A stretch of 63,939 nt of DNA, the filler included, from Octopus bimaculoides (Eukaryota), in assembly GCF_001194135.2 (NCBI RefSeq). It is 7 parts of 6 records of this genome, joined end to end, with 100 filler letters (N's around TTAATTAATTAA, not from the genome) between each part and the next. Parts side by side here need not be neighbours in the genome. Positions count along the whole stretch, not along the records: positions 1 to 26,681 come from NC_068999.1; positions 26,782 to 41,149 come from NC_068987.1; positions 41,250 to 46,857 come from NC_068981.1; positions 46,958 to 56,989 come from NC_069009.1; 3 more parts are not named here. One strand, 5' to 3'. The notes under the pieces are model-generated. The model worked only from the letters and a program-made list of their open reading frames with translations, did not search any database and was not told the DNA's origin. Below, piece after piece: positions 19,979-51,685 of this stretch. Every line of letters starts with the position of its first letter. Within the stretch, counting starts at the first letter, position 1. The translations under genes were made by a program, and so were the position numbers.

Positions 19979-20043
19979 ATTGGACTGAAGATTTGGAATA
20001 GAGAAATTTTCATTCTCTTAACCATGAAACGATCGTATCCAAT
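19979..20043 (+). ncRNA. Type I hammerhead ribozyme fold (Penelope-type)
   Basis: attgga-CTGAAGA-[imperfect stem II: tgg/cca, agagaa/ttctct]-GAAA-CGATCG-TA-tccaat; 6-bp stem I, palindromic stem III ACGATCGT, GUA site at 20037. Confidence 0.65.
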
Positions 20044-20235
20044 TAACTAAAGACTTGTTTTGTTTATGCTTTTCCCTCCGGTTTTTTGTTCTATGTGTGC
20101 CATAAATATCGCCATCCGTTTAGAGAAAAATTTGTAGTTTAGAATCAGTAGTTCTTTGACTGCTATTTCTAAATTTTCAGTATGTTGGAGAAGCAACTCA
20201 ATGCTAATCCCTGTATATAATTGTATATGTATGTA

Positions 20236-20606
20236 TTCTTTTATTGCTTTACTTGTTTCAGTCATTTGACTGCAGCCATGCTGGAGCATCGCCTTTAGTC
20301 GAGCAAATCAACTCCAGAACTTATTCTTTGTAAGCCTAGTACTTAATCTATCGATCTCTTATGCTGAACCGCTAAGTTACGGGGATGTAAACACACCAAG
20401 TGATGTTAGGGGGACAAACAGACACAAACATAAACACACACACATACATATACGATGGGATTTTTCCAGTTTCCGTCTACCAAATCCACTCACATGACTT
20501 TGGTCAGCCCGAGGGTATAGTAGAGGACACTTGCTGAAGGTGCCACGTAGTGGGACTGACTCCTGGACCATGTGGTTGCTAAGCAAGCTACTTTCCACAC
20601 AGCCAT
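20236..20606 (-). mobile_element. SINE type A, full length
   Basis: Reverse complement of head atggctgtgtgg...ggagtcagtcccactacgtggcacc, the core and the tail. Confidence 0.93.
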
Positions 20607-21065
20607 AAATAAATAAATTAATTAATGTAAATAGATTGAATTATTGTGATTTAGCTTCATTTTGTATATAATATACAATGTATTTTACGTATTTTAGATT
20701 TAAGTTATTCAGACTTTAGTATTTTTAAGTAAATGATATCCTACAGTTAAGTTTTTCCTTATTCTCACATCTATAATACATTGTCATCTTAACAGTTTAA
20801 ATACATATTTCTATCTCATTATTCCATAATTTTTTATTTACGCCGTATTTTCACGTGATTTATTTTGTATAAACACTAAGTTCTACATATTACGTTTAAA
20901 ATTTTAGTTTACAGCAAATTTTCAATAAGATAAGTTGTGCTTTTATTTTAAGAAATATTGTTAACTGTTTTTCAATTATTTATTTATTGTTAAAACAAAT
21001 ATTTTTTTTTAGATATGTTACAATACGTAGATTGATTTTTTAAAAATTATTTTAATTTTATTTTA

Positions 21066-21193
21066 GACCTGATGAGTGACTATATTTTTGAATAGATTTA
21101 ACTGTAGATTGATTTGATTATTAATCGAATTATTAATTGAATTGGTTTTAGTAGATATCTACTTGAAAATATAGCCACGAAATGTGCATAGTC
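21066..21193 (+). ncRNA. Type I hammerhead ribozyme fold with a very long stem II loop
   Basis: gac-CTGATGA-gtgactatatttt...aaaatatagccac-GAAA-TGTGCA-TA-gtc; 12 of 13 stem II pairs, stem I only 3 bp, AUA site at 21190. Confidence 0.6.
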
Positions 21194-21354
21194 ATTTTAT
21201 AACATTTACTAGTTGTTCTTTTATAAATTTCATTTTTTTATTGATTTTTTGAATAAGGTTTTTATGATATGTTTATTTTCTGGAGGGTATGAATTAAATT
21301 CTTCTTTATTGAATTATTTAATAGTGGTTTTTCTCTAAATTACATATATATATA

Positions 21355-24180
21355 TCATCATCATCATCATCATCATTGTTTAACGTCCGCTTTCCATGCT
21401 AGCATGGGTTGGACGATTTGACTGAGGACTGGTGAAACCAGATGGCTACACCAGGTTCCAATCTGATTTGGCAGAGTTTCTACAGCTGGATGCCCTTCCT
21501 AATGCCAACCACTCCGAGAATGTAGTGGGTGCTTTTACGTGCCACCGGCACGAAGGCCAATCAGGCGGTACTGGCAACGGCCACGCTCAAAATGGTGTAT
21601 TTTATGTGCCACCTGCACAAGAGCTAGTCCAGGGGCACTGGCAACGATCTCGCTCGAAAGTCCTTATACATGCCAGCAGAGGCAAGAGCTCTCTGAACTT
21701 TTCTCAGGCTATTCTTATTCTAGCAGCTACACTTTCCGCGCACTGTCCCCCACTACTAACTTGGTAACCTAGATAGCGGAAGTTATCAACTACGTGTAGT
21801 TTTTCTCCCTGGAATGTGGCGGAAGTTGTTTTCTGCACATTTACAGTGTTTATTGCTCCTGAACAGAGTTTCTACGTATGCCTTTTCTACAGATCAAGCA
21901 GGGCCATCTGCCTGAAGGGGTTTGTGTCTGTTCTACCTTCCTACTTATTAGGACTTTGGCTTTAGCTAGGTTGACTCTAAGGCTCTTTGATTGTAGTCCT
22001 TGCTTCCACACCTGAAACTTCTCCTCTAGTTCTGATAGTGACTCAGCAATTAGTGCAAGGTCATCAGCATAGAGGAGCTCCCTGGGGCATCCTGTCTTGA
22101 TTTCCTCTGTTATTGCCTGGAGGACTATGATAAATAGGAGGGGGCTGAGGACTGAACCTTGGTGGACACCTACCTCTACCTGGAATTCTTCACTGTACTC
22201 ATTGCCAACCCTCACCTTATAGACAGCATCACTGTACATGGCTCGCACAGCCCTCACTAACCATTCTTCTATCCCTAGTTTCCTCATTGACCACCAGATA
22301 ATGGATTGGGGGACACTGTCAAAGGCTTTCTCCATCTCAACGAAAGCCAGGTAGAGAGGTTTATCTTTGGCTAGGTATTTCTCCTGCAGCTGTCTTACCA
22401 GTAATATAGCATCAGTGGTGCTTTTGCCTGGCACAAACCCAAACTGCATGATCTAACAACTTGATACCTCTGTAATTATTTGTATCTAAAGCATCACCAT
22501 TACCTTTGTAGCAAGTGACTATGGTGCTGCTACACCAGTCATTGGATATGACTCCTTCATGTATCACCCGGTTAACAATACGGGTGGCTAGGCTATAGCC
22601 GACACTGCCAGATAATTTGAGCATCTCTGAAGTGATTCCTGATGGGCCGGGGGCTTTCCCTGTCTCCGTACTCTTAATTGCTTTATCTACCATGGTACTG
22701 TCAACTCAGATAGCTGGTTCCTCTGTTGGGTCAACATTCGGCAGACTCTCTTTCTCTCATTCATTCTCTTTGTTGAGCAACCATTCATAGTGGCGTCTTC
22801 AAATCTCTCTCTTTGCAGCCTCGTTTAGTGCAAGTGTACCATCATCCATGCGAACACATTTCTCTCCCGCGACATCATAATTCTCTCTCATACACTGTCT
22901 TGCAACACGAAATACCTCAAGTCTTTGGTCCTCACGGCGCAGAACATTGGCAAATTTTTTTCTCATCTGCTTCCCCTCTGGTTAAATAAACCTGTCACCT
23001 AGCTTCCCTTCTGGCAGTCTGATACAATTCCCTGCTACCACCTTTCTTCCAGTCCTTCCAAACTTGTTTCTTCTGTCTAATAGCCCTGTCAACAACATTC
23101 TTCCATCACCACATTATTTTGAGTTGAGAGGGGACTTTGCACCATCCACAGATCTGGTCAGTGGCCCTCAGCAGGTTTTCCTGTAGAAACATCCAGTTGT
23201 CTTCTACATCGTGTGACGCTATATCCCCCTCTATTTCGTCAAAGGCTTCGAGTAATAAGTCTCTAAATCTCTGTCCATTCGCAGGATCTTTGAGCTTCCA
23301 GATCCTTCTCCTCCATGCTGGTCGTCTTCTCGGCAACCACTTAGTCCTGATCCTGAAGTCACTAACTACCAGTCTATGTTGTGGGGTACATTCTTCGCAT
23401 GGGAAGGTTTTGGCATTTATAAGCAGACATCTTTCCCTTTTCCTGGTGAGGATGTCGTCAATTTGACTAGTATGTCTGCCAGAACAGTAGGTGATTAGGT
23501 GACTCGTAGGTTTCCTGAAGTTAGTATTGCAGACGATAAGGTCATTTGCATCACAGAACTCCAGCAGCCTGGTTTCCTCCACATTGCGGGAACCAAAACC
23601 ATAGCCTCCATGTACGCCATGGAAGCCCCCTGAATGTTGTCCAATATGACCATTGAAGTCACTAGTCAGAAAGAGAAGGTCCCTGTCATTCGTCGACGAG
23701 GTAGTCTGCAAGAGCGTGTCATAAAATCAGTCTTTCAGTCCGTCGGGTAGCCCGGGCTGAGGGGCATAGGCCGAGATAATGGTTGCTAAACCATGGTAAA
23801 GGACTAATCTAATCTTAAGTATTCTATCACATACTCTAGCTACCTCAATTACCTTATCCACCCATTTCTCTGCAAGAGGAATGGATTCCCTGCCCAGAAA
23901 ATCTTGTACCTGTCTTCTTTGCCTGTGAGGAACCTAGTGGAACCTTACTTCTTGGAGGCAGCAGATATCGACACCTTACTTCTTGGAGGCAGCAGATATC
24001 GACACATCTCCATTCAAGCATCTCAACAATCTCACCAGACCTACCTTTCAGTGTGTCGATGTTGAGAGTGCAAACCCTGAGGGTTTGGGAGGTAAGGGCC
24101 CGTGAGACCCTGGGGCGGGGAACAGCAGCGTCATGTACCTGAAAAGAAAGCTCGCATTTTGCAGAATTCATAAACAATCA
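21355..24180 (-). mobile_element. Near-full-length RTE-clade LINE (APE endonuclease + RT) with internal deletions
   Basis: LRVCTLNIDTLKGRSGEIVEML...DICCLQEV, SDFNGHIG, SQIDDIL and QHRLVVSDF (APE); KAPGPSGI, QGSVLSPLLF and LLYADD (RT); (GAT)n tail at 21355-21375. Confidence 0.96.
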
Positions 24181-24984
24181 GTAGCATTCCTTTCAGCCAG
24201 CATCTACTACACTATCGTATTTTGCACTATATGATCACTACCTTACATAGGAGATAAACCCTAAGTGGGGGTGGGGGGAATGGCGTGAAGCCTTNNNNNN
24301 NNNNNNNNNNNNNNNNNNNNNNNNNNNNNNNNNNNNNNNNNNNNNNNNNNNNNNNNNNNNNNNNNNNNNNNNNNNNNNNNNNNNNNNNNNNNNNNNNNNN
24401 NNNNNNNNNNNNNNNNNNNNNNNNNNNNNNNNNNNNNNNNNNNNNNNNNNNNNNNNNNNNNNNNNNNNNNNNNNNNNNNNNNNNNNNNNNNNNNNNNNNN
24501 NNNNNNNNNNNNNNNNNNNNNNNNNNNNNNNNNNNNNNNNNNNNNNNNNNNNNNNNNNNNNNNNNNNNNNNNNNNNNNNNNNNNNNNNNNNNNNNNNNNN
24601 NNNNNNNNNNNNNNNNNNNNNNNNNNNNNNNNNNNNNNNNNNNNNNNNNNNNNNNNNNNNNNNNNNNNNNNNNNNNNNNNNNNNNNNNNNNNNNNNNNNN
24701 NNNNNNNNNNNNNNNNNNNNNNNNNNNNNNNNNNNNNNNNNNNNNNNNNNNNNNNNNNNNNNNNNNNNNNNNNNNNNNNNNNNNNNNNNNNNNNNNNNNN
24801 NNNNNNNNNNNNNNNNNNNNNNNNNNNNNNNNNNNNNNNNNNNNNNNNNNNNNNNNNNNNNNNNNNNNNNNNNNNNNNNNNNNNNNNNNNNNNNNNNNNN
24901 NNNNNNNNNNNNNNNNNNNNNNNNNNNNNNNNNNNNNNNNNNNNNNNNNNNNNNNNNNNNNNNNNNNNNNNNNNNNNNNNNNNN

Positions 24985-25028
<44 letters not shown>

Positions 25029-25082
25029 CATATACATACACATACATAACACACACATATATATATACACATATACATACAT

Positions 25083-25115
<33 letters not shown>

Positions 25116-25355
25116 CAAACACATACATACACACACATACATAACATATATATACATACACATACAAAACATATATATATATATATACACACACACATAT
25201 ATATATATATCCATACACACACACACATATATATATATATCCATACACACACACATATATATATATCCATACACATGCATAACATATATANNNNNNNNNN
25301 ATATATGAATAATAATAATAAATGGAGCAAAACGCATATAAATAAAAGTTTCTTT

Positions 25356-25447
25356 AATTCCTAAACATGTTTCAAAATAAATGAGAGCTCCTTCACAAGG
25401 AAGTAAGAGCTGTTGGGATTCCTCATATATTTCTCTTCAGGGAGTTC
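25356..25447 (-). ncRNA. Degenerate type I hammerhead fold
   Basis: Minus strand: gaactcc-CTGAAGA-gaaatatatgag...ctcatttatttt-GAAA-CATG-TT-taggaatt; 11 of 12 stem II pairs, ACATGT palindrome, stem I out of register by 2 nt. Confidence 0.5.
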
Positions 25448-26200
25448 ATAATAAACATATAATAGCAAGATAAAAACGAAATGATGAGGTAACTTACGAG
25501 CAAAGATGTTACATGGTCAGTGACCGTTAGAACGTTTGTTTACATAGAGATATAAAGGGATCAATGATATTATTCCATGGGCTTTAGGAATAAGAATGCT
25601 TGTTTACATAGAGATATAAAGGGAGGGGGTTGTAAACGTGATGCTAAAGGTTAAACTCAGTGAGTTATTGAAATAGGGGGAGAAAGACAAATATGTTGTA
25701 GTACTGTTAAATTTGAAAGAGCGTGAGCTAATTGCTGAGTCAAAAACGGAGGAAGGGAGGGAACTAAGGGAATACATCATATAAGGGAAACTAATAACAT
25801 ATTTATATGTAGTGAAGAAGGTGAATAAAAATAAATGAAACATCGTAGCCTAGTGATATATTACACTATTGTACGGATATTAACGCTTATTAATGGTAAA
25901 GCAGGGTACAGGATATTTATTTGAGAAGTAATAAAGATAATAACATACACGTTAACAAGAAGAATAAAAATACTTAGTTGAAGTCACCAGAGGTACGAAC
26001 AACAACCTGTGCGGCATTACTAAGAAGAAATAACTTAGCTAACTGTAGATGGGGAAATAAAGCACTAGTAGTGAATGAGGCAGAAGTATATATATTTTAT
26101 ATATATATATATATGTATGTATACATACACACACACACACACATATACACACCTTCACATACATTCCTGTATATATACATACACCCCCCACACACATGTA

Positions 26201-26262
<62 letters not shown>

Positions 26263-26267
26263 TACAC

Positions 26268-26681
26268 ATGAGGATGAGGTCTCTGTAGCAAACTTTCTGG
26301 ATGTTACCTTAGACTTACATAGTAATACTCACTTTCCATTCCATAAACCTTCAACTAATCTCAAGTACATAAGCCCCTTTAGTAACCATCCAAGACATAT
26401 AACCAGTAATTTGGTTAGGAATATCTCAATTAGGCTTTCCAAACTTTCTTCTAACTCCCAAATTTTCAATAAGGAGGCTGACTTCTATAATTCAGCCTTA
26501 TTAAGGGCTGGCTATAAGGAAAAGGTGAGGTACATCAACTCTTCTAGTGATCTTTCTCCTTCTACACAACATGATACCCCCTTTACTAGCGTAGATGAAC
26601 CCATTTCTATTCCTTCCCATTCTTCTCACTTTACTGAGAAAGTGGGTCATCCTCTTAACTCACATAAGAGAAGTGCCCCAA
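26268..26681 (+). mobile_element. Penelope-like element, RT C-terminal/thumb fragment
   Basis: [10 protein letters not shown]...[18 protein letters not shown]...[28 protein letters not shown]. Confidence 0.88.
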
Positions 26682-26725
26682 NNNNNNNNNNNNNNNNNNN
26701 NNNNNNNNNNNNNNNNNNNNNNNNN

Positions 26726-26737
26726 TTAATTAATTAA
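26726..26737. other. Artificial scaffold linker (N44-TTAATTAATTAA-N44)
   Basis: Palindrome with TAA in all six frames, centred in a 100-base block; identical at six sites. Confidence 0.95.
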
Positions 26738-27114
26738 NNNNNNNNNNNNNNNNNNNNNNNNNNNNNNNNNNNNNNNNNNNNATACTTATACATATATATA
26801 TATGCACATATATATATGTACATATATACATGTACATATATACATGTTCATATATATATACATATATATAGATACATATGTACATATATATATATTTACA
26901 TATTTATATAAACATATATATACATATATATATACATATATATATATACATATATTCAAATGAGGTTTGCTAATTTTTCACCCAATATCTCGCTTATTTC
27001 TATTTAAAATGTTATTTTGAAATGTTATTTTGATCATTCCAGCGTGTTTCTAAGACTGTTTTATGCTAGAAATCAAAGTTTCATTTAAAAAATTCCAGTT
27101 AATAGAATTATGAG

Positions 27115-27480
27115 AGGTAATGGGTTAAGATTGGTTGAGGGTTTGTGGTATGGGAAGTACGAATTATTGTGTAAGTTAAGTGTAATATCTAAAAAGTTAG
27201 CTTTCGTTACATTACCATCAAAAACGATGCCTAAGCCCATTCTACGGAAAAACTTAACTAAACTAATCTTAGCCTTTTCTACTTTTTGGTTAGAAAGATT
27301 TTGAAGGTAGAGTAGTCACGATATAGACCTCCATTGATGCTTGGGAACTGGTCTGCCATTTCATAAAGTATATACCTACCAAATCAGCTATTTGTTCTGA
27401 ATCAGAACTTCCCATCGTGACATCAAAACCATCACGTGTATCTTTACGGACCCACAGCTTGTTATCAAAGTGGACATCTA
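27115..27480 (-). mobile_element. Penelope-like element RT fragment
   Basis: FDVTMGSSDSEQIADLVG, GGLYRD and ANFLDITLNLHNNSYFPYHKPSTN in broken frames. Confidence 0.88.
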
Positions 27481-27897
27481 CGGTCGAACCACAAAAGAAA
27501 AGAATGTTCTCTAAGGGAATTCAGCGAATTATGTTCTCTAACCGGCTACAGTTACTGCAATGAATTATCTTCTGCATAATTGTTTCCGGTATTTAGCGCG
27601 CCAGAGCTGAGACTTTTGAAAATAACTCCAATGTAATCGGTAGAATTGTACACATGTCTAATTTTATGTTGGACAATTCGTGTATTGTTCTGCAAATTAT
27701 ATTGAATTGAAGGTTCGTACTGATGAGCCACGGATGGGTTGTGTAAGTAAAAATTACATTAATCCATCAATGTGCGAAACCTAGTCTACGATTAATTCTT
27801 TATTTACTATATTTTCATTTGTCTTGCCCGTTCATGTTCTGGTTTGCGCTGAATTCCCCTAGAGAACATTCTTTTCTTTTGTGGTTTGACCGTAGAT
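27476..27897. repeat. Inverted repeat pair (27476-27526 / 27847-27897) enclosing a hammerhead; pLTR-like
   Basis: atctacggtcgaaccacaaaagaaaagaatgttctctaagggaattcagcg and its reverse complement, with 2 mismatches. Confidence 0.85.
27715..27791 (+). ncRNA. Type I hammerhead ribozyme with intact core
   Basis: tcgta-CTGATGA-G[long stem II]C-GAAA-CCTAG-TC-tacga; perfect 5-bp stem I, G10.1-C11.1 pair, GUC site at 27786. Confidence 0.78.
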
Positions 27898-27947
27898 GAT
27901 CTATCTCTAGCATAAAGGATGTCCACTTAGTGGTCATCCCTTCTCAT

Positions 27948-27948
<1 letters not shown>

Positions 27949-27990
<42 letters not shown>
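27949..27990. repeat. (GATA)n microsatellite
   Basis: Direct reading; similar tracts at 31333-31424 and 52673-52702. Confidence 0.95.
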
Positions 27991-27991
<1 letters not shown>

Positions 27992-28329
27992 GTAGACATC
28001 AGCATTATGAGTACCCAGCAGTGTTTAGACATAAGCGAACTTTAGGTTCGTAATATGTTTGTGACATATTGCAACTTCTAAGGGCGAATTCACTGAAGCT
28101 ATCATGGATAAAAACTCCCTCGCATAGTAAAATACTGTAAAGACATATCTGTCCCTGTCGGATTCTGAAACGAGTGTCGAACGGCTAAAGAGCTAGAAAC
28201 ATGTCGGCAGGGAGCAATGCTGAACAAACTTTTTTTCACCATAAAAGAGAATTTTTTTTCTCCACAGTAACTGCAGTGAATTTTGCTTTTAGAAGTTGAG
28301 ATATGTCACAGAGATATTTTAACTGAAGT

Positions 28330-28390
<61 letters not shown>

Positions 28391-28431
28391 TTGAGTTTTT
28401 ACCCGTAATTTTGGATTTTATCCCTAATATT

Positions 28432-28463
<32 letters not shown>

Positions 28464-29256: not shown

Positions 29257-29337
<81 letters not shown>
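29257..29337. repeat. (ATT)n microsatellite
   Basis: Direct reading. Confidence 0.95.
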
Positions 29338-31599: not shown

Positions 31600-32480
31600 T
31601 AATCTTAACCTTAATCTTATATATATAAATGAGATGTATTAGTATCTAGAAGACTAAACTTTAAGAACTTAGCTAAATCCTTATTTAATATATTAAACTC
31701 CAACTTCTCTCATCAACATAAAAGAATATTACTCTATCTTTAATAGATCTACCCTGAAGCTATCCTATTCCACCCCACCCAACTTCCAGTCTACCATAGT
31801 AGCCTCAAATAAACAAAAGCTTTCTCTCTACTATTAAAACTCATACAATAACTCTGAATACACGAGCACTCAACATATACACAGCTCCAGCATTGAACCC
31901 CATACGTTAGACTACAACCATAACCCAACCTATCTTACTAACATTATCCAGAATACTACCAAAACTTTCACCACCGTTACAGAATAATTACCAACAACGA
32001 TAGCAATAATAATGGTAATATTAATAATACCGTTCTATCCCCATCTCTAACCTCTACTCTGAGAGTTAGTACCTCCCCCATTCCTGAAATTAATCCCTAA
32101 AATATACCCACTTGTAACTGCTGCCCGGGATCCATCTGCCCTCTACAAACCCGTTGTAGATCTAATGTAATTTATAAATGCACCGTCCTCAACACATTAC
32201 ACAATTCTACAGCTATATATACAGGATCAACCATAAATTTTAAACAGTGATATGCCGCTCATCTCAATTCTTTTAGATACCTGAAACAGTAACTCCACAA
32301 CACTCACCAGTCACATCATCTCAAAAATAGAAATATTTCCTACATTTTGTCATGGTCCATAATAGATTCCGGGACTCCATACCAAGGTTAACACATAGCT
32401 TGTAAGCTATGCCTAAAAGAGGCATTCCATATATTAAAACACAACTCCTCAATACTACTAAATAAATATAAGAGGTCCTA
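31600..32480 (+). mobile_element. Penelope-like element 3' part with GIY-YIG endonuclease (degenerate)
   Basis: CNC...CPL...C..NVIYKC, IYTGSTINFKQ.YAAHLNSFR, WSII, CKLCLKEAFHI and TCNH. Confidence 0.88.
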
Positions 32481-34558: not shown

Positions 34559-35940
34559 ATTACTTCCTAATGAGACTTACATGACCTATACAAATGAGTA
34601 TTAAGGTCGATCGTAACGTCCTTTATGATCCTCATCAATGGTAATGGATGAACCAATATTTTTCAAGAAGTTTTTTGTTAATTCTTTCTATCTCTATATT
34701 GCTATGGTTGAAGAAAATAAATAGTGCATCGTTTCTATATAGACCACCTGCAATGTCTGAAAAATCAATCTTTAATATATTCAAAGTATAATTACCTACT
34801 AAATTTGTGACCTGCACCAAATTGCTAGATCCCATAGTTGCATCGAAATCATATAACAAATCCCTCGAAATTCAGTTTCCATCGAAATTAATAAGGGTTC
34901 TCTTATAGAATTATATCGCTCTCCTTCCTAGATAATTCGTTTCAAAAGTGTAAGGTTAATATTTTAATAGTAGCTGTCTATATATCAACTTGAACAAATT
35001 TATACCTGTTCCTATCGTTTATGCTTTTAAACCAGTCTATAACTTAGCTGTATTTAGACCATATACTGAATTCCACCTTATCTTTAAGCTCGTGAATAAC
35101 TATATATAAAATCAACTTACTTATCCTATTTATATCAGATTTAGAACGACAGACTAGCTGCACATAAGGTTTACTAACCTTAAACTTGGTTTAAGGTCCT
35201 TTAAATTAATTTTAGGAGGTTTAGTGTTATAGGCTTGTACGATCCTATGGTCTGATATCGCACACTATATTCTAACATTCTTTATCAATGTTCTTTCAAG
35301 TGGATCATGGTTCTAGTTTATATCCTTTTAGGTATAAGGTCCTTATACTTTTCGAGTTTCAATCTGTAAAGATTCCCGGTCTTACTCGCATGTACAAACA
35401 TTCCTGTTGAATTCTTTTCAATTGTCTTTCAGCTTTTTGAGAGGTCCTTGTTGAGTTTCACTAAAATTCTATTGTATTAATTATGTTTATGAGATTCCGT
35501 TTCAATCCGTGAAGAAAGGGGTTATGTAGAGGAGTCTTCCTAGATTTGAACTTTCTCTTGAACTAGATTGAAATCTCGCGGTTGTCACCTTCAGGGTGAC
35601 AGCTAGATGCATTGTCGCAATGGAAGGATGTCCCCATCTTCATCTTGTAATGAAAGTGTTGTTTTCTTTTTTAATATGAAAATTAATGTATTCCATTCGT
35701 CCGGTATTGTGACATCCTTTTAGCGATCGTTGATGCATAATTTCTCCATTCCACAAATTACACATCTCTCAAATATTTCTATTTTTTAACACTATGCATC
35801 TATAAGAGTTGCTTTCTCGAAACCAATATCTCAATCTATCAGGCTTTCTACAACGTACATGCTTTAAATATGACACGCAGATTGCTTCTGTTGCTCATAA
35901 AGAATTCGTATTCATTCTACCTGCCAACGGCGGCACCAGC
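34559..35940 (-). mobile_element. Penelope-like element, N-terminal region + RT, 3'-truncated and degenerate
   Basis: KTGNLYRL, SKSD..RISKLIL, YKFVQVDI, FDATMGSSNLVQVTNLVG and GGLYRNDAL in broken frames. Confidence 0.88.
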
Positions 35941-39639: not shown

Positions 39640-40990
39640 ATAATTGGAGATATCTGAGCATTTCTCTCTTGTAGGCTAGTGAATGGATATAAGTACTTAA
39701 GTATTTTGGAGTATGAGAAAATTAAGGAGGATGAGATGAAGGAAAGCTTTAGATGAGAATACCTCAAGAAAACCAAATTAAATATGAAGAGTAGACTCAA
39801 TGGAAGGCAGTGAATACATGAGCTGTCTCCTTAATACGATATAGTTCAGGTGTTGTTAGCAGGACAAAGAACGAGCTTGAGAAAGTGGATGGAAAAACCA
39901 GAAATGTGATGATAATGAACAAGAAACTACATCCTAAAAGCGATGTCGATAGACTTTACATGTCCAGAAACAAAGGAAGAAGACGTCTCATACTCTGCAA
40001 GATTCGTGTTGCCAATGAGGAAAACAGTCTTGGATTGTATGTGAAACAGCAGATTGAACTTTTGGATACCGTTGTTGTTAGAAAGAGCAACATGATACCT
40101 AGTGAAAATGTGACACATCGAAAAGCATTTAAGAAATAAGATGGGAAACAAAGATTGAACAACTGGAAAATGAAAGCGATGCATGGGTATTGCCTCACAG
40201 AAATGGAAAGTAAAGACAAGACCAATACCTGGATGTGACTAAGGAAATGTTATCTGAAAGACTGCACTAAGGCAGTACTCAGGAACAAGCTTTGAGAACT
40301 AATTACACCAAGTTCCAAAGAGATAAGATTAGTGAATCGCTTCTTTGTAATATGTGTGGTAGCAAAAACGTAAGTCTCACATGTTGTGAGTGAGTGTAGC
40401 AAATTGGCTCAAAAGGAATACAAAGGGAGGCATGATAACATAGCTAAATATGTTAATTAAAGATTGTGTGAGAAGTACGGTCTTGAAAGGATATTGAAGT
40501 GGTATGAACGTAATTCAGAAGGCATCACCGATAATAATGAGTACACAATCTTATGGGATTTTACAATCCAGTTTTATTCGGTGATTGATATTTGGAGACC
40601 AGACATTGCTGTAATTGACAAAATGATGAAGGCAACCAAGATCATAGGAATTACCATGTACGAGTGGATGACAAAGAAGTAGAAAAGTTTGAAAAGTACA
40701 AGCCACTAAAAGATGAAATTGCACGAATGTGGACAATGAAAAGAGTAACGGTCATCCCGGTAGTTGTAGGGTTACTGAGAAATTTGCTGGAGAAAATGGG
40801 ATTGACATGGGAGTTGAACATGTTCAGAAAATTGCTCTTTTGGGGACAGCGAGGATTTGGGGATTGGTACTCGATTGTTAAGTATCGTAGAATGAGACCC
40901 TGTGAAATCCTTGACAATAGGTTTCTTACAGAATTAGCAGGGGCAAGTGAAATAAAAAAAACTCTGAGAAGTGAAATGGAAATAATAATA
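39640..40990 (+). mobile_element. R4/Dong-like non-LTR retrotransposon, 3' half (RT end, CCHC, REL endonuclease)
   Basis: GYKYL.ILE, LHPKSDVDRLY, QEQALRTNY, CNMC...HVVSECSKLAQKEYKGRHD, ILWDFTIQ, RPDIAVIDK, EKFEKYKPL and VIPVVVG; ends in (TAA)n. Confidence 0.9.
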
Positions 40991-41149
40991 ATCTTTTATA
41001 TTACAGGCACAAGGCCTGAAATTGTTAGATCAATTACATCGACCCCACTGCGTAACTGGTACTTATTTTATTGACTCCGAAATTATGAAAGGCAAAGTCG
41101 ACCTCGGCAGAATTTAAACTCAGAACGTAAAGACGGAAAAAATGCCGCT
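40985..41149 (-). mobile_element. SINE type B (cut by a gap)
   Basis: caggcacaaggcctgaaa...actggtacttattttattgactccgaaattatgaaaggcaaagtcgacctcggcagaattt. Confidence 0.85.
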
Positions 41150-42362: not shown

Positions 42363-42897
42363 GCATATGCATATATANNNNNNNNNNNNNNNNNNNNNNN
42401 NNNNNNNNNNNNNNNNNNNNNNNNNNNNNNNNNNNNNNNNNNNNNNNNNNNNNNNNNNNNNNNNNNNNNNNNNNNNNNNNNNNNNNNNNNNNNNNNNNNN
42501 NNNNNNNNNNNNNNNNNNNNNNNNNNNNNNNNNNNNNNNNNNNNNNNNNNNNNNNNNNNNNNNNNNNNNNNNNNNNNNNNNNNNNNNNNNNNNNNNNNNN
42601 NNNNNNNNNNNNNNNNNNNNNNNNNNNNNNNNNNNNNNNNNNNNNNNNNNNNNNNNNNNNNNNNNNNNNNATACGGATAAGATCGATATTTAAAATATTG
42701 ATTTTATCAAGTGGCCAGCATGGGAATAAAAACCTTCAAAGGTAACAAATTATTTAAAATTATAATACAGGGTATCTAAGAGATACCGCCACGCTGAAAA
42801 ATAGCGGTCAAATCTTGACTCTAAACCACAATAAATGTTCATATAGAACAAAAGAGCGAAGACGAAGACAAAATAAACTAGTCAAAATAACTGGATA

Positions 42898-42956
42898 ATT
42901 CCAGATCCCGGATTTCTGGCTTTGCATAATAAATGCTTTGCCTTCATCGGTGGAAT
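42898..42956 (-). ncRNA. Hammerhead-like fold with CCGAUGA core variant
   Basis: attcca-CCGATGA-aggcaaagca..tgcaaagcca-GAAA-TCCGGGA-TC-tggaat; perfect 6-bp stem I, AUC site. Confidence 0.55.
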
Positions 42957-43490
42957 ATACTCAAGCACATAAATACAAATATATATATATATAAACATAC
43001 AGTATACTTACATATACGAACGTATACATACATATATATGCACGTATGCACACGATTAGCTTAAAATTGCCCGCCTAAAAACTCCTCGTGCGATATGGAC
43101 AGAATATCAGCACAGTAAATACACTGACAAAATAAATTTATATAAATAAGGATAAGATCGATATTTAAAATATTGATTTTATCAAGTGGCCAGCATGGGA
43201 ATAAAAACCTTCAAAGGTAACAAATTATTTAAAATTATAATACAGGGTATCTAAGAGATACCGCCACGCTGAAAAATAGCAGTCAAATCTTGACTCTAAA
43301 CCACAATAAATGTTCAATGTTCATATAAATGTTGATATTCTGTCCATATCGCACGAGGAGCTTTTAGGCGGGCAATTTAAGCTCATCGTGTGCATACGTG
43401 AATATATATGTATGTATACGTTCGTATATGTAAGTATACTGTATGTTTATATATATATATATATATATTTGTATTTATGTGCTTGAGTAT

Positions 43491-43549
43491 ATTCCACCGA
43501 TAAAGGCAAAGCATTTATTATGCAAAGCCAGAAATCCGTGATCTGGAAT
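43491..43549 (+). ncRNA. Second, more decayed copy of the hammerhead-like fold
   Basis: attcca-CCGATAA-aggc...gcca-GAAA-TCCGTGA-TC-tggaat. Confidence 0.4.
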
Positions 43550-43682
43550 TATCCAGTTATTTTTACTAATTTATTTTGTCTTCGTCTTTGCTCTTTTGTG
43601 CTATATGAACATTTATTGTGGTTTAGAGTCAAGATTTGACTGCTATTTTTCAGCGTGGCGGTATCTCTTAGATACCCTGTAT

Positions 43683-43715
<33 letters not shown>

Positions 43716-45498: not shown

Positions 45499-46449
45499 TA
45501 AAAAATGGTTGGGTAAAAATTGGAGCAATATTTAGAAATAAATTATACAAATAAATAGTTATATAAATATGTAAAAAATAGTTATACAAATATATATGTA
45601 AAATGAAATCACACTGTGACATGCTACCTAGGCTGCATCAAAACTCCTATCGTCTCTGTCATATTTCGCTACAAATACTGGAAACTGTTTCCATCCAAAA
45701 AAGTGTATGTGCGCATCTTTTCCGTTGCATGGGGCAAGAAACAACTCACGTTCTTTGTACAGGCTTATTTAATCGGATTATAGCTAACCAGTATGTCCTT
45801 CGCCAATACTCTGTCAGCTGAGTAATTTTTCTGAATTGTAGAACTTTTTGCTCCCCCTCTATAGCACACCGCACTGGTCGTTACCTTTGTATTCCTCAAA
45901 ATTACATTAGCATTCAAATTACAGTGGATCAAATGCTGTCCTGTGGATGATGTAGGATTTTCTCCAAGTATATTACACATGTTTGAATATAGTACTATTT
46001 ATAATTTTCGTTTTGTTAGTTTTATCTAATTTTTTCTTGTGGGGCAGTTTGCTAAGTTTAACTATGGGATGGTAAAGTCTCCTGACATTAGATTCAACAA
46101 CATTTCTCTACTGGGTATGATATCCTTGGAGTTGTAAGTCTATTCTATGTAGCTGAAGTTGCTGCTACTTCTACTGTTGTCTACGGTCCTCCTGACTATT
46201 CTGATTTCGTAAAACTTCTAATTGCACTTATCAAATATGATTACCTTCTTAGCAGCACCATAAATGAGGTACAGATGCGACATAGACCAATGTCTTCAGG
46301 AGTCATCAGGACGTGTGTCACGATGCAGCTCTCACCTACAAAATATTTCTATGTTACTCGAAATGCACCATACACTGAAATCTGCCGTAAATGTGCGTAC
46401 TAATGGCCCTGACCACGAACTCGGTGTTTCATGTTTTTCAGAACATAGC

Positions 46450-46515
46450 GGCAGACAAAATACCACTAAGCATTTCGTCCGGCGTGCTAACGATTCTGCC
46501 TGCTCGAAGCCTTTA
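46450..46515 (-). mobile_element. SINE type B head
   Basis: ctaagcatttcgtccggcgtgctaacgattctgcc. Confidence 0.8.
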
Positions 46516-46562
46516 GTAATAATAATAATAATAATAATGATAATAATAATAATAATAATAAT

Positions 46563-46857
46563 ACTCCAAACAAAAGAGGGACTTGTGAAAACGAAAGCCA
46601 TCCCCATTAGAAGAGGAATATTCCAAGGAGACACGCTCTCTCCACTCCTGTTCTGCCTGGCACTCACACCTTTAACAGAATTGCTAAATAGAACTGGATG
46701 CGGTTACAAATGCTATGGAAAAAGAGTCAGCCACCTTCTATATATGGATGACCTAAAATTATACGCAAAAAACGACAAAGAGCTAGAAACACTACTACAG
46801 ACAGTACACGGCTTTACCAAGGAAATAGAAATGAAATTCGGATTAGAAACATGTGCC
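46563..46857 (+). mobile_element. R4/Dong-like RT fragment beginning at a (TAA)n tract
   Basis: IPIRRGIFQGDTLSPLLFCLAL...SHLLYMDDLKLYAKN...MKFGLETCA. Confidence 0.92.
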
Positions 46858-47004
46858 NNNNNNNNNNNNNNNNNNNNNNNNNNNNNNNNNNNNNNNNNNN
46901 NTTAATTAATTAANNNNNNNNNNNNNNNNNNNNNNNNNNNNNNNNNNNNNNNNNNNNTGTGCCAAAATTTGAAACTAGTATTTAGATAATAGAATAGAAT
47001 AGAT

Positions 47005-47195
47005 GTCCCCCCCCCACCATCGCTTGACAACCGATGCTGGTGTGTTTACATCCCCATAACTTAGCGATTTGGTAAAAGAGGCTGATAGAATAAGTACTAG
47101 GCTTACAAAGAATAAGCTCTGGGGTCGATTTGCTCAGCTAAAAGTGGTGCTCCAGCATAGCCACAGTTAAATGACTGAAACGAGTAAAAGAGCTA
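47005..47195 (+). mobile_element. SINE type A, 3' half
   Basis: cgcttgacaaccgatgctggtgtgtttacatcccc...gtgctccagcat...aatgactgaaacgagtaaaag. Confidence 0.9.
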
Positions 47196-47804
47196 ACAGT
47201 GAGAGAGAGAGAGAGAGAGAGAAAGTCAAACACACTACTGACACATACACACATGCACTCATATACACTACAAATGCTAAGACATGCACACATATACACA
47301 TACTGCCATTTTCTCACACACATCACACAGCTAATTGTCACCTGATTGTGTGTGTGTGTGCGTGTGTGTATGTGTGTGTGGCAATGGTGTTCATTTGGAT
47401 CTCTCTCTCTCTCTTTCTTTCTATTGTACAAATACTATTACCAGCCCTTTACCTCAGTCTAACAGATTTTTTACTCCACAGGAATCTATCATTAGCATTT
47501 TAACAGGTGAGGATTAGCAATGGACATCCAACTATAGATGAACCCTGCATCAATAAACTCTGTTCGAACCAGGCAAGCATGGAAAAGGGACTCTAAAACG
47601 ATGACAACAATGATAATGATGGTGATAGTGGTGTAGCACTGGCAGAGTGTGGCAGTGATGATGATGATGATGATGATAACACCCCCTTTTCAGCTGTTTT
47701 CAATAGACTTATTACTTGCTCAATAGAATAAAAAAGTAGTAATTGTTAAGTACATCCAAGTAACTGATGTATCAGCTACAAGTTTATACATATATTTATT
47801 TTAT

Positions 47805-48100
47805 TCATTTATGCACCCTTTTAAAGCCTAGCCAGGCTCATGGGCCCGGTTTCCCGGTTTCTATGGTGTATGTGTTCCCCCACCCAGCTGGACAGAACAC
47901 CAATCCATCGCAGCTTTACTCAAGAAACAGAAAGAAAGAGTGAGAGAAAGTTGGGACGAAAGAGTACAACAGGGGTCGCCACCACCCCCTGCCGTGTTTT
48001 CGCTCAATAAACACACACAACGCCCGGTCTGGGAGTCGAAACCGTGATCCTCCAACCGCAAGTCTGCTGCCCTAACCACTGGGCCATTGCGCCTCCACAT
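47805..48100 (-). mobile_element. tRNA-derived SINE (type D)
   Basis: Minus strand: gtggaggcgcaaTGGCCCAGTGGTTAGGgcagcagacttgcggttggaggatcacGGTTTCGACTCCcagacc (clear A and B boxes), then a non-tRNA body. Confidence 0.8.
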
Positions 48101-48283
48101 AATATATTTACATCTAGCACAATAGAATAAAAGAATGAGTAAATGTTAAATATAAGTGACTGACGCTACAGGATTATACTTGTGTACACACAACTAGCAC
48201 AATAGAGTAAAACAGGAACTGGATCAGGTCATACAATTATTAATCCGAAGCAGATTTACTCAGATCTGTATAAGACAACTCAG

Positions 48284-48346
<63 letters not shown>

Positions 48347-48529
48347 GTATGTATGTTCTTTTCAGTGTTTAATTGTTTAAATTCTTTCTCTGGAGAAGGA
48401 GTTGGTTTCTAACAAAAATACGAAGCTCCATTTTTGGAATGTAGATAACAAAAACAGTGTCACGTTTTAAACTTGAGAAGTCTTGCATAGTTTTAGTGTT
48501 CCGCTTACACAATGTATGTATGTGTGAAG

Positions 48530-48790
48530 TCCTCATTAAAGGCTTGTGATATGCAGGAGACCGACTGGGAGAGCAGTACCTGTCATTGCTACCAGTGTAG
48601 GAAGCAGGTTAAGGAGGGGGTTGACAGCTTTGAAAGAGCACATATTCTGCATGAATAATTAAAGCGTGCTGCACGCTGCCAGTGTAGTGAATGGGGAAAG
48701 CTTGATTTGCAATGTTTGGAGTCATGTATGCTTGTCAAGAGCAGGGCACTTTAGCCACCAACGGAGCTGCAAATGCAAAATATAAGTTAG
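48530..48790 (+). mobile_element. Probable old RTE-like LINE C-terminal fragment
   Basis: DWES...RKQVKEGVDSFERAHILHE.LKRA...C.SC..KSRA...HQRSC resembles RTE C-termini with a terminal zinc-binding motif. Confidence 0.5.
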
Positions 48791-48941
48791 TCCTAGAGCA
48801 CACAATGTTCCTGAAGGTCGGCAATGGTCTTCCTCGGTCATGAGCAGATGGCCATCATGTACATACATACGTAACCACCCACCTGCCCGTCCATCCACCT
48901 ATCCATGCATGTAGGTAGGTAAGTAAGTACGTATGTATATA

Positions 48942-49161
48942 CAGTATTCCTTCACCATATCGTGGCTCACCTATCGTGGTTTATTATTTAAGCTTATATC
49001 GATTCCTCCATGGTGTTGTTTTGCATTTATAATAAAATAAATATATACAAATTATAAAAATATTGAAAAAATACACAGTACAGTTCTGTTTCTACTTCGT
49101 AAATTTTCACCTATCAAGCGGGGTTTTGGAATGTAACACCCGTGATGTCGAGGGATTACTG
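48942..49161. mobile_element. Tigger/pogo-type MITE, 220 bp
   Basis: TA on both sides (48940-41, 49162-63); termini CAGTATTCCTTC vs CAGTAATCCCTC (reverse complement). Confidence 0.7.
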
Positions 49162-49891
49162 TATGGGTACAACTGGCTCCCACACAGCATGCATCTATAA
49201 CATTCACTCATGAGGAATTGGTCAAACTTATTAACCCCTCTGCTGTGCCTAATTGGAATGTCTCTTTTAGTAATACTAGTGGGACCTCTGGAAATTCCAC
49301 AGAACAAAAAAGATTGAGAAAGGATGATCAGCATTATTTTGATTCCAGTTATTTCGCTTCCAGTCACATTAATATATGATTTCATTTTAAAATTCCCCCC
49401 ACCCCTGCTAAGCACTATATTTCTCTCTTTCTCTCTTCCTCTTCAACAAACTTTTTAACCATGCAATTCCCCTCTTCATGCCTTTAACATTTCTCTCTTT
49501 CTCTTCACGATGCATCAGCTGCCTCTGCTCTCTCATTCACTCTTGCATTCCCTCTTCCTGTCTCTCTCACTCCATCTCCTCCTCTTCCTGTCTAACAAAC
49601 TAAAGCATAAAGTGTGAACAAATATATACACTTAGTTCAATGAAAAAATACTTTCTACTATCAACACACCACCACCACCACCACCATCATCATCATTATA
49701 AACGCTAGTTTTCAGTAAAAAAGCTCATTTCATTTCAGTCCAGCTGTTTACTTTTTCTTGCTGTCACTGTATCTCTACTCTTACGATACAAACACTATCT
49801 GCCTCTCTCTTTCTTAATGTAACTGCCTCCCTCTGTCCATCTCTCTCTCTCTCTCTCTCTGTCACTCTCTCTGTCACTCTCTCACTCTCAC

Positions 49892-49930
<39 letters not shown>

Positions 49931-50469
49931 TTCTTTAACCTGATCATCAGAACATCACCTTTGCTAAATATTGTATCCTAAACATATCTCTTTCTCTTTG
50001 CCTTTTCTTCTCCACTCTACAACATGCTGTTAACACTTCTCTCTCCCTCTTTTCTCTCATTCTTCACCTCTCCTTTCAAATAACCATGTGATGCATTTGG
50101 CTTTATTATACATCTTTCTATACTTCTTCCTCACTTCTTTCTTCTCTACTCACTCTCTCCTCTTTCTCCCCCTCTCTCTCTCACTTTTACTCCACCCCTC
50201 ACTCACTTCACCTCCATCTCAGTAACTAACAAAAGTATAACAGGTAAACAAACAAGCAGATTATTATATAGATTTTAGTTAAGAGAAAAAGCAGTGCCCA
50301 TTACCCTTAACAGGGCCTCCAAGACTGGTTTGAGGAATGGTGGGAGGAAGTTATCCTGAAATCAGAAACCTTCCAAAATGCTTGCAATAGAGTAGAGTTT
50401 GCCAAAAGCACTTAAGGGTGTTGGGTGGTGGTATTAAGCAATGTAACAGATCACATGTACCACCCAATA

Positions 50470-50920
50470 CAGCATCATCATTACCATCATCATCCTTTAA
50501 CATCAGTTTTCCATGCTGGTATGAGTTGAATGGTCTGACTATATCTGGGAAGCTGTACAGGTTCCAGTCTGATTAGGGTTCGTTTCTACCGCTGGATGCT
50601 CTTCCTAATGCCAACCCCTTTACAGTGTGTGCTGGGTGCTTTTAACATTCCACTGGCATAAGTGCCTTTATGTAGCACCAGCATGGTTGCTTTTTATGTG
50701 GCACCGGCAAATGACTCTTGCAGGCTAATCCTCTTCACCAGTGGCCTTAACACTTCTATTGTGAAGGATGGGTTTTCTTGAGTACAGCAAGGTGCCAGGT
50801 TTCTCAATTTTTTTTCATCTTGTCTGAAATGTTCAGCATCCTTGGGTCATCCTTAAGTACTCCATCTTCTGAGATTGTCCTTCAGTACTTCATCCAACAT
50901 TGAGTTTGAAATTCGCATCA
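50470..50920 (-). mobile_element. Diverged RTE-family 3' end
   Basis: catcatc..tttaacatcagttttccatgctgg...gctggatgctcttcctaatgccaacc. Confidence 0.75.
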
Positions 50921-50984
50921 AAATTTCATTCTATGACTCTTTTTTAATGACTGATTTTCATCTAACTCCTTAAAGTGTTGCAGA

Positions 50985-51090
50985 TTCAGTCCCACTGTGT
51001 GGCACCTTGGGTGAGTGTCTTCTACTATAATATTGAGCCAACCAAACCCTTGTGAGTGGATCTGCTCGATGGAAACTAAAAGAAGCCCAT
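50985..51090 (+). mobile_element. SINE type A fragment
   Basis: ttcagtcccactgtgtggcaccttggg...gatggaaactaaaagaagccc. Confidence 0.85.
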
Positions 51091-51599
51091 TATATATATN
51101 NNNNNNNNNNNNNNNNNNNNNNNNNNNNNNNNNNNNNNNNNNNNNNNNNNNNNNNNNNNNNNNNNNNNNNNNNNNNNNNNNNNNNNNNNNNNNNNNNNNN
51201 NNNNNNNNNNNNNNNNNNNNNNNNNNNNNNNNNNNNNNNNTATATATATATATATATGTGTGTGTGTATATATGTGTTTTTATATTATTAATAAATTCAT
51301 GAACTTATCAATAATATAATCAGGAAATCAATATTTAATATTTCGAAAAACATACATCCAACATGACACGGCAACATAATAAATTTAAAATTTAAAGCAT
51401 AAATATACGAAATATAAATATCAATATATATAAAAATCTGAATATAGATAAATAGCGGATGTTAAATGATGATGATGATGATGATGATGATGATATGTGT
51501 GAATATATATGCGTATAAAAATTTATGCGTAATTAGGCATGAATATTGTAAAGTCTAAAATCTAAAATATAAAGGAACCTAAGATTTAAAGAGTTAAAT

Positions 51600-51685
51600 A
51601 TCTTACGATCATTTCGCAGATATTACTATAATCACAAAGTGATCTAAAGATCATCTTATTATCAGTAATTCCGCTCTTCAGAGAT
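51600..51685 (-). ncRNA. Type I hammerhead ribozyme with intact core and long stem II
   Basis: Minus strand: atct-CTGAAGA-Gcggaattactgataat...attatagtaatatctgC-GAAA-TGATCG-TA-agat; G10.1-C11.1 pair, ~16 pairs in stem II, GUA site between 51604 and 51603. Confidence 0.75.

What the first reader, a model, noticed from the sequence alone, without database searches (positions are those of the whole stretch)
19979..51685. At least six non-identical type I hammerhead folds share one unusual architecture across the window
Seen: CUGANGA...GAAA cores at 19979, 21066, 25356, 27715, 42898/43491 and 51600, all in type I order. Each has a short, near-palindromic stem III (ACGATCGT, ATGTGCAT, ACATGT, ACCTAGT, ATCCGGGAT, ATGATCGT), and most have a long stem II of different sequence. 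Known: Penelope-like elements carry minimal type I hammerheads with palindromic stem III that are thought to cleave as dimers. Inference: several distinct PLE or PLE-derived families here keep the fold while stem sequences turn over. Long stem II arms may be a lineage-specific design that stabilises the ribozyme in AT-rich RNA.
Basis: partly seen in the sequence, partly recalled or inferred. Interest (0 to 1): 0.75.

Follow-up and report, generated by a model that had tools for sequence, protein, structure and literature searches.

The report
Octopus Penelope hammerheads, optional long arm
The motifs are decayed copies of six separate repeat families, likely in an octopus: three are ends of protein-coding Penelope-like jumping genes and three are short non-coding units those genes likely move, and each carries a hammerhead RNA fold predicted to cut only in pairs, with a long second arm that is common in this genome but optional.

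Summary
The seven motifs are real: a descriptor finds 6 in the window against a mean of 0.15 in shuffles. They belong to six separate multi-copy families. Three sit downstream of an RT plus endonuclease ORF with Hydra-clade Penelope motifs: 21066 and 25356 firmly, 51600 on two loci. Three (19979, 27715, 42898) are ORF-less, head-to-tail units of about 584, 549 and 475 nt with Penelope-style ends. Family majorities restore palindromic stems III where the window copies have decayed, and stems covary between subfamilies. The core design is published for Hydra elements. The long stem II (49-103 nt in four families; published Hydra 12-26 nt) I did not find in print. It is common genome-wide (586 matches at 40-70 nt, 179 at 10-30 nt), but it is not one shared architecture: one lineage has both 25-nt and 60-nt forms. 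Cleavage is untested, and RNA reads show no cut ends. This scan reported long-armed octopus Hydra hammerheads before on other DNA. Verdict: new variant of a known kind.

The parts
19755..19862 (-). Inverted 108-nt tail piece of the 19979 family
   Evidence: BLAST of the natural unit against the window
19861..20218 (+). 5'-truncated copy of a non-coding unit of about 584 nt (family 19979)
   Evidence: 1436 first-look candidates, best 40 at 95-100%; read-through into the next unit at 8 independent loci
19979..20043 (+). Type I hammerhead motif; 34-nt stem II insert with U.U at its base; stem III ACGATCGT; predicted cut after 20037
20609..21338 (+). 3' untranslated end of a Hydra-like PLE (family 21066)
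   Evidence: 87% to the 3' part of the ORF-bearing copy L229; ORF end upstream on the same strand in 6 of 30 loci
21066..21193 (+). Type I hammerhead motif; 103-nt stem II; stem III decayed from ACGTGCGT (13 of 31 copies, the commonest state)
   Evidence: (fold z -3.9)
25314..26114 (-). 3' untranslated end of a Hydra-like PLE (family 25356)
   Evidence: 77-82% to L212; hammerhead 0.75-2.5 kb downstream of the ORF match in 12 of 17 loci
25359..25443 (-). Type I hammerhead motif; 60-nt stem II; stem III decayed from ACATGTGT
26269..26681 (+). RT fragment of the same PLE family, inverted relative to the 3' end
   Evidence: 94% DNA identity to the L212 ORF
27125..27469 (-). Broken RT fragment of a related PLE, abutting the inverted piece of family 27715; link to that family unclear
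   Evidence: 71% to the L212 ORF
27475..27526 (-). Inverted 52-nt piece of family 27715
   Evidence: 96% reverse complement of 27847-27898
27527..27949 (+). 5'-truncated copy of a non-coding unit of about 549 nt (family 27715)
   Evidence: 853 candidates; read-through at 4 independent loci
27715..27791 (+). Type I hammerhead motif; 49-nt stem II; stem III decayed from ACCTGGT (27 of 33 copies)
   Evidence: (fold z -3.8)
42671..43316 (-). More than one unit (645 nt) of the 475-nt non-coding family 42898, head to tail
   Evidence: single 95% match across the unit junction; 1536 candidates
42898..42956 (-). Type I hammerhead motif with U4C core and A.A at the base of a 27-nt stem II; stem III ATCCGGGAT
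43333..43696 (+). Inverted second copy of family 42898
43491..43549 (+). Hammerhead copy with G8 changed to A and a change in stem III; predicted inactive
   Evidence: role of G8 from PMC11167929 and PMC6155905 passages
51263..51970 (-). 3' end of a probable Hydra-like PLE (family 51600)
   Evidence: 96% to the region downstream of the endonuclease ORF end in L234; related ORF with related hammerheads on both sides in L232
51600..51685 (-). Type I hammerhead motif; 59-nt stem II; stem III decayed from ACGATCGT (24 of 27 copies)

Best explanation
The motifs are decayed genomic copies of six separate repeat families, three lying at the 3' end of Penelope-like retrotransposons with Hydra-clade protein motifs and three in ORF-less head-to-tail units likely moved by those enzymes; each hammerhead is predicted to cut only when two copies pair through the palindromic stem III, and the long stem II is likely an optional fold-back expansion. 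Steps. Shown: family membership, ORF link (21066 and 25356; weaker for 51600), unit structure, two discrete 3' ends, inverted partners, compensatory changes. Inferred: a tandem precursor RNA brings two hammerheads together (the two ends of a full element, or neighbouring units); the palindromes form a 6-10 bp shared helix; cutting, probably helped by the element's protein as in the anole element, releases a unit-length RNA. Every copy examined runs across the cut site and some exceed one unit, so the template must be uncut or re-ligated (circular). The RT starts at one of two sites 190-350 nt past the core and inserts at TA-rich microsatellites. The arm is inferred to be under selection to stay paired, so that extra sequence does not misfold the core, and not to be needed for cutting. 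The window copies have no intact same-strand partner and are likely inactive remnants.
For: Six families with 243-1536 first-look candidates each; the only notable shared stretch is 33-37 nt between two of them. ORF link: 12 of 17 loci for 25356 (loci picked by me from the 150 RT hits), 6 of 30 for 21066, L234 and L232 for 51600. ORFs carry RxxWK, DKT and, in two families, CxCX5C, as defined for Hydra. Non-coding units: longest ATG frame 39-49 aa in doubled units (the 19979 unit used there had a gap), read-through at 8, 5 and 4 independent loci and two 3' ends about 100 nt apart. Stem III as a hairpin costs +1.4 to +2.7 kcal/mol, as a duplex gains -7.5 to -12.0. Covariation: 14 cells changed on both sides against 5.4 in shuffles, at 3 pairs in the long arm of 25356; 16 against 6.8 for 42898, including the inner palindrome pair. 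N7 carries shared variants in four families while the other core positions mostly hold. Arm optional: L408 (60 nt) and five 25-nt loci share flanks at 67-80%; ORF-linked clusters with 10, 14, 22 and 25-27 nt inserts.
Against: No cleavage data. Three RNA-seq runs show no pile of read ends at the predicted cut site in either unit laid; reads come from both strands, though fragmented cDNA from thousands of passive copies has little power. RNAalifold recovers stem II but not the hammerhead register of stems I and III for 25356. The number of covarying pairs is small (3 per family) and not above shuffles as a count (113/500 and 447/500); related sequences inflate the cell counts; for the 51600 group support is weak (26/500). 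Pfam names neither RT nor endonuclease in the local ORFs, and gives only sub-threshold GIY-YIG hits in 2 of 6 homologues; no PDB match. Long arms outnumber short ones about 3 to 1 for the one stem III counted, which a purely neutral expansion does not predict. No autonomous partner was identified for the non-coding units.
Confidence: 0.72

Rival explanations
1. The long arm is a selected functional part: it stabilises the fold or is a handle for the element's protein, so long-armed families have an advantage.
For: 586 against 179 exact matches for long and short inserts; about ten long-arm families among 30 loci; compensatory changes 6-11 bp from the core; three subfamilies of the 51600 group keep a 12-14 bp arm with different letters.
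Against: No sequence is shared among arms. A 25-nt and 60-nt pair exists in one lineage. Short-arm families are ORF-linked and abundant. Only 18 of 30 long inserts fold better than 95% of shuffles, against 22 of 30 short ones. Selection to stay paired explains the covariation as well.
Confidence: 0.3
2. The fold is kept for a job other than cutting (RNP assembly, dimer pairing, positioning RT initiation), and cleavage is slow or irrelevant.
For: In the anole PLE, catalytic mutants did not affect insertion in vitro and no reads ended at the cut site (PMC11167929 passages). U4C, which lowers activity in vitro (PMC3088659 passage), is fixed in the youngest 42898 subfamily (24 of 26) and recurs in other families. 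No cut ends.
Against: C3, G5, A6, G8, A9, G12-A15 and a permitted cleavage triplet hold across all six families and diverged subfamilies. U4C and U.U at the base of stem II are known in active hammerheads.
Confidence: 0.15
3. Families 19979, 27715 and 42898 are only truncated terminal repeats of coding PLEs whose ORF was not sampled.
For: Only 30-60 loci per family were read out of hundreds; the assembly is gappy; RT or endonuclease fragments lie next to a few copies (window 27125-27469, L006, L021, L260, L382).
Against: Walking upstream returns to the family's own downstream sequence through the same junction at 8, 5 and 4 independent loci, also in an older subfamily (L375). No locus has an ORF upstream on the same strand; neighbouring fragments lie downstream or on the other strand, as expected for elements that share TA targets.
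Confidence: 0.13
4. Chance matches and hairpins in AT-rich repetitive DNA.
For: Rfam finds none; whole-motif fold z-scores are weak (-1.2 to -2.1) for five of seven window copies.
Against: Shuffle control, reversed-pattern control, majority states that restore the palindromes, position at PLE 3' ends.
Confidence: 0.01

Closest known systems
Hydra-clade Penelope-like elements and their hammerheads (Craig et al. 2021, PMC8557442; read: passages, section 11, supplement parts 1-2 and search hits), including Hydra-1_Obim
   Same: C-terminal endonuclease, RWK-like and DKT motifs, CxCX5C linker in two of three families, TA-repeat neighbours, inverted truncated partners, type I hammerhead near the 3' end with a 7-10 nt palindromic stem III and often U.U at the base of stem II.
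   Different: Insert between the core halves is 12-26 nt in the 26 Hydra rows of File S2 (counted by me), against 49-103 nt in four families here. The 25356 family lacks the CxCX5C linker and is longer than 3 kb. None of the six hammerheads is the one listed for Hydra-1_Obim. Two spike-moss PLE-X rows have inserts of about 48-54 nt and are marked there as deviating, so long arms in PLE hammerheads have a precedent.
Minimal PLE hammerheads of metazoans (Cervera and de la Pena 2014, PMC4209133; read: parts 1-2 of 4)
   Same: Type I order, palindromic 15.2-16.2 region, larger than usual helix II, many families per genome with covariation, mostly dispersed single copies, some on opposite strands 100-700 bp apart; dimer cleavage shown there but low.
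   Different: Helix II there is 6-8 bp; here 12-14 bp plus a distal hairpin, up to 103 nt. Stem III here has 3-4 potential pairs.
Metazoan non-LTR retrozymes (Cervera and de la Pena 2020, PMC7229834, passages; Li et al. bioRxiv 10.64898/2026.07.22.740005, part 1 of 5 and passages, supplements closed)
   Same: Non-coding head-to-tail units with one type I hammerhead each; the preprint argues they derive from PLEs.
   Different: Units here are 475-584 nt against about 220-350 nt in the passages read; mostly dispersed, truncated, with inverted partners and two defined 3' ends; hammerhead of the PLE type; circular RNA not shown.
PAc, Poseidon element of the green anole (PMC11167929, passages)
   Same: Two RT start sites give an optional tail; AT-rich targets; hammerhead in the terminal repeat.
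   Different: Tail there 30-40 nt, about 100 nt in the three non-coding families here; protein-assisted cleavage shown there, untested here.

Membership tests
Type I hammerhead ribozyme | CUGANGA and GAAA core with NUH cut site between stems I, II, III, opening in stem I | tested here: met
   All six families; U4C in family 42898; G8A in the 43491 copy
Type I hammerhead ribozyme | Compensatory changes in the stems | tested here: met
   25356 and 42898, 3 pairs each; weak for 51600; not counted for 19979, 21066, 27715
Type I hammerhead ribozyme | Match to an Rfam hammerhead model | tested here: not met
   0 of 107 matches at E up to 5; long inserts and short stems are a likely cause, not tested
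Type I hammerhead ribozyme | Self-cleavage at the predicted site | not testable with these tools
   No bench assay; RNA-seq ends uninformative
PLE dimer-type hammerhead | Short palindromic stem III, unstable alone and stable as a duplex | tested here: met
   Commonest states palindromic; energies; dimer cleavage itself untested
EN+ Penelope-like element (21066, 25356, 51600) | Single ORF with RT and C-terminal GIY-YIG endonuclease upstream of the hammerhead | tested here: met
   ORF links; RT motifs read by eye and matched to File S4/Fig. S7; homologues at E 1e-102 to 1e-49, unnamed; Pfam gives no confident name; 51600 rests on two loci
EN+ Penelope-like element | Partial tandems, inverted truncated copies, optional tail | tested here: met
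   L215 has the repeat upstream of the ORF; inverted copies in the window; two 3' ends counted for the three non-coding families only
Hydra clade | RWK motif and DKT in place of DKG | tested here: met
   RIRWK and DKT in L201, RIKWK and DKT in L229; N-terminal part not available for 51600
Hydra clade | CxCX5C linker, no CCHH endonuclease motif | tested here: inconclusive
   Linker present in the ORFs of 21066 and 51600, absent in 25356; CCHH judged absent by eye only
Hydra clade | Length under 3 kb | tested here: not met
   About 3.1 kb for 21066 (L229) and over 3.5 kb for 25356; the paper says 'generally'
Hydra clade | Placement in the Hydra clade on an RT tree | not tested
   Reference sequences were seen only in the paper's supplement and were not available to the tree tools
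Non-LTR retrozyme (19979, 27715, 42898) | Non-coding head-to-tail unit with one type I hammerhead | tested here: met
Non-LTR retrozyme (19979, 27715, 42898) | Tandem arrays with two or more complete hammerheads | tested here: inconclusive
   Direct pairs with two hammerheads at L233 and L235; most copies are single, truncated or inverted
Non-LTR retrozyme (19979, 27715, 42898) | Unit-length linear and circular RNA | not testable with these tools
   'Goes back' joints only reflect the head-to-tail unit, which also exists as DNA

The most novel reading that the evidence does not exclude
Octopus Hydra-like retrotransposons support a set of large (475-585 nt) circular passenger RNAs, and the long stem II arm that dominates their hammerheads is a protein-binding handle that replaces the usual loop-loop contact and lets the element's enzyme switch dimer cleavage on; natural 25-nt and 60-nt versions of one ribozyme make this directly testable.
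Probability: 0.2. Interest if true: 0.68.

Novelty: new variant of a known kind. Interest (0 to 1): 0.42.

Why it matters
What PLE hammerheads do is still open: they are slow in vitro and dispensable for insertion in the one purified system. This genome offers natural test material: one lineage with short and long arms, subfamilies that switched to a U4C core, palindromes of 6 to 10 nt in one family, and coding and non-coding families side by side. Long-armed motifs are missed by Rfam here, so ribozyme counts in such genomes are likely too low. The basic arrangement is known, so a specialist would find this useful more than surprising.

Tried and rejected
Rfam scan: no hammerhead. Pfam on the window RT fragment, four local ORFs and six homologues: no confident family; PDB sequence search empty. 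Census downstream of 90 endonuclease loci (30, 60 picked by me from its other 120 rows): 12 of 90 had a strict sense-strand motif, because copies are old and gappy, so it gives examples, not proportions; hits in L312, L358 and L362 may be separate insertions. A profile search of the genome was not possible, so diverged families are under-sampled. RNA: no listed holder is on record as RNA; three raw RNA runs show reads on both strands and no pile of ends at the cut sites. The weak ORF hit next to the 51600 copy in L152/L243 was rejected as an unrelated junction. A shared downstream motif was sought in all six families: found only between 19979 and 42898 by BLAST, loosely in 27715, not in the ORF-linked ones. 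One search used a mis-indexed structure and held one row on the wrong strand; both were discarded and redone. Literature searches for long-armed or octopus PLE hammerheads found only Craig 2021 for octopus. Lunse et al. 2017 and Arkhipova et al. 2017 are not held; they describe PLE hammerhead variants and may already include long stems II.
Full report
Observation. The window is a pack of seven stretches; the cited sites lie on four contigs of a 2.34 Gb genome. All seven motifs are present in type I order with the parts listed under the observation check. Rfam reports no hammerhead among 107 matches. A post hoc descriptor finds 6 motifs in the window against a mean of 0.15 in 100 shuffles. Exact genome-wide patterns for the core plus one stem III give 586 matches with 40-70 nt inserts and 179 with 10-30 nt, against 2 and 2 for the reversed control. 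The organism is likely an octopus: the endonuclease in L365 is, by eye, nearly the same as Hydra-1_Obim in the supplement of PMC8557442.

Six families. Each motif belongs to its own repeat family with 243 to 1536 first-look candidates, of which 40 were scored per search. Apart from 33-37 nt shared by 19979 and 42898, BLAST finds only simple AT-rich matches between them. The window copies are decayed. The commonest stem III is ACGATCGT in 15 of 32 copies (19979), ACGTGCGT in 13 of 31 (21066), ACATGTGT in 32 of 48 (25356), ACCTGGT in 27 of 33 (27715), ATCCGGGAT in 17 of 26 (42898) and ACGATCGT in 24 of 27 (51600); four window copies differ from these.

Three families are ends of coding elements. 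A window fragment at 26270-26680 reads as part of an RT and has 6515 candidates in the genome. In 12 of 17 extended loci, chosen by me for long frames, the 25356 hammerhead lies 0.75-2.5 kb downstream of the ORF match on the same strand, and in L215 it lies just upstream of the ORF. For 21066 the ORF end lies upstream in 6 of 30 loci and L229 holds most of an element. For 51600 the link rests on L234 and on L232, where a related ORF has related hammerheads on both sides. The ORFs show RIRWK or RIKWK and DKT and, for 21066 and 51600, CxCX5C, the marks given for the Hydra clade (section 11 of PMC8557442). Pfam and PDB do not name these proteins, so the assignment rests on motifs, on unnamed homologues and on comparison by eye with the published alignment. 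No tree was built.

Three families are non-coding units. Walking upstream from 19979 returns to the family's own downstream sequence. Natural units are about 584, 549 and 475 nt, with no long frame. Read-through of more than 200 nt past the main 3' end is seen at 8, 4 and 5 independent loci, among 62, 35 and 44 loci hit, some overlapping; the window itself holds 645 nt of the 475-nt unit. Each family has two main 3' ends about 100 nt apart, like the optional tail that PMC11167929 ties to two RT start sites, though longer. No locus of these families has an ORF upstream on the same strand. They work like retrozymes or non-autonomous PLEs; circular RNA is not shown.

Selection on the fold. For 25356, 24 distinct rows give 14 cells changed on both sides against 5.4 in shuffles (0/500), at three pairs 6-11 bp into the arm; the count of such pairs is not above shuffles (113/500). 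For 42898, 27 rows give 16 against 6.8 (0/500), with a C-G to U-A switch in the distal arm and a C-G to G-C switch inside the palindrome; pair count 447/500. For the 51600 group, 12 rows give weak support (26/500), though three subfamilies keep a 12-14 bp arm with different letters. Rows were chosen to include diverged subfamilies, and relatedness inflates these counts. N7 carries shared variants in four families; U4C is shared in 42898 (24 of 26) and 51600 (8 of 27), while older 42898 subfamilies keep U4. RNAalifold recovers the arm but not the hammerhead register, as expected if stem III forms only between two copies.

Mechanism. Stem III costs +1.4 to +2.7 kcal/mol as a hairpin and gains -7.5 to -12.0 as a duplex of two copies. 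Dimer cleavage of such motifs is known and slow (PMC4209133; review PMC6765202), and in the anole element it needs the protein. I infer that two hammerheads in a tandem precursor pair, cut out a unit-length RNA, and that uncut or re-ligated RNA is copied, since the copies span the cut site. None of this is shown here. RNA-seq reads map to both strands with many A>G and T>C differences and no pile of ends at the cut site; this fits passive transcription of many copies and has little power.

The long arm. Inserts are 12-26 nt in the 26 Hydra rows of File S2, by my count, with about 48-54 nt in two PLE-X rows marked as deviating. Here four of six are 49-103 nt, and about ten long-arm families appear among 30 loci. 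But ORF-linked clusters have 10, 14, 22 and 25-27 nt inserts, and L408 (60 nt) shares 67-80% flanking identity and the base of stem II with five 25-nt loci, one of which follows an endonuclease ORF. Arms share no sequence between families. So the arm is frequent and kept paired, but gained or lost within a lineage. U.U at the base of stem II, seen at 19979, is common in the Hydra table; it and U4C are known in active hammerheads (PMC3088659 passages).

Novelty. The core design and genomic layout are published. Long arms in octopus PLE hammerheads and non-coding Hydra-type units were not found in the searches; two key papers (Lunse 2017, Arkhipova 2017) are not held, and the supplements of the 2026 preprint are closed. 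Earlier notes of this scan report long-armed octopus Hydra hammerheads on other DNA; I reached that reading before seeing, and those notes are not independent support. What this window adds is the split into coding and non-coding families and a natural short/long pair. Verdict: new variant of a known kind, interest 0.42.

Noticed in passing
L408 against L433, L443, L447, L451, L454: Same hammerhead lineage with a 60-nt or a 25-nt stem II insert; flanks 67-80% alike. A natural pair for testing the arm.
   Followed up: partly
window 42944-42950; L171-L178; L298, L315, L345, L349, L351: U4C core arises in at least four families, including the youngest 42898 subfamily and two ORF-linked clusters.
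   Followed up: partly
window 20132-20168 and about 43615-43648: Families 19979 and 42898 share a 33-37 nt stretch about 70-130 nt after the cut site; a looser version is in 27715; possibly a signal for the helper enzyme.
   Followed up: partly
L273:1268-1909 and L147:1180-1760: RNA reads differ from the loci mostly by A>G and T>C, often in part of the reads, as A-to-I editing of paired inverted copies would give; copy differences are not excluded.
   Followed up: no
window 21055-21068: Stem I of 21066 begins at the end of a T-rich run ending in TTTTAG, like the intron end that overlaps helix I in D. virilis Penelope; splicing untested.
   Followed up: no
window 27125-27526: An RT fragment abuts the inverted piece of non-coding family 27715; either insertion into an older element or a template switch to the helper RNA.
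   Followed up: partly
L213, L223, L224, L214, L217: Stem III palindrome length varies from 6 to 10 nt within family 25356.
   Followed up: no
window 31654-32463 (+) and 34585-35550 (-): Further broken PLE ORF fragments.
   Followed up: no
window 21850-23726 (-): Broken endonuclease plus RT frames that look like a LINE (resemblance recalled, not tested); similar fragments near 40619-41071 and 46264-46857.
   Followed up: no
window 9019-9501 (-) and 16071-16529 (-): Frames that look like DNA-transposase remnants (resemblance recalled, not tested).
   Followed up: no
G000: 14,554 first-look candidates for a Hydra-type endonuclease; at least 16 clusters among 90 loci, far more than the one octopus Hydra family in the published table.
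   Followed up: partly
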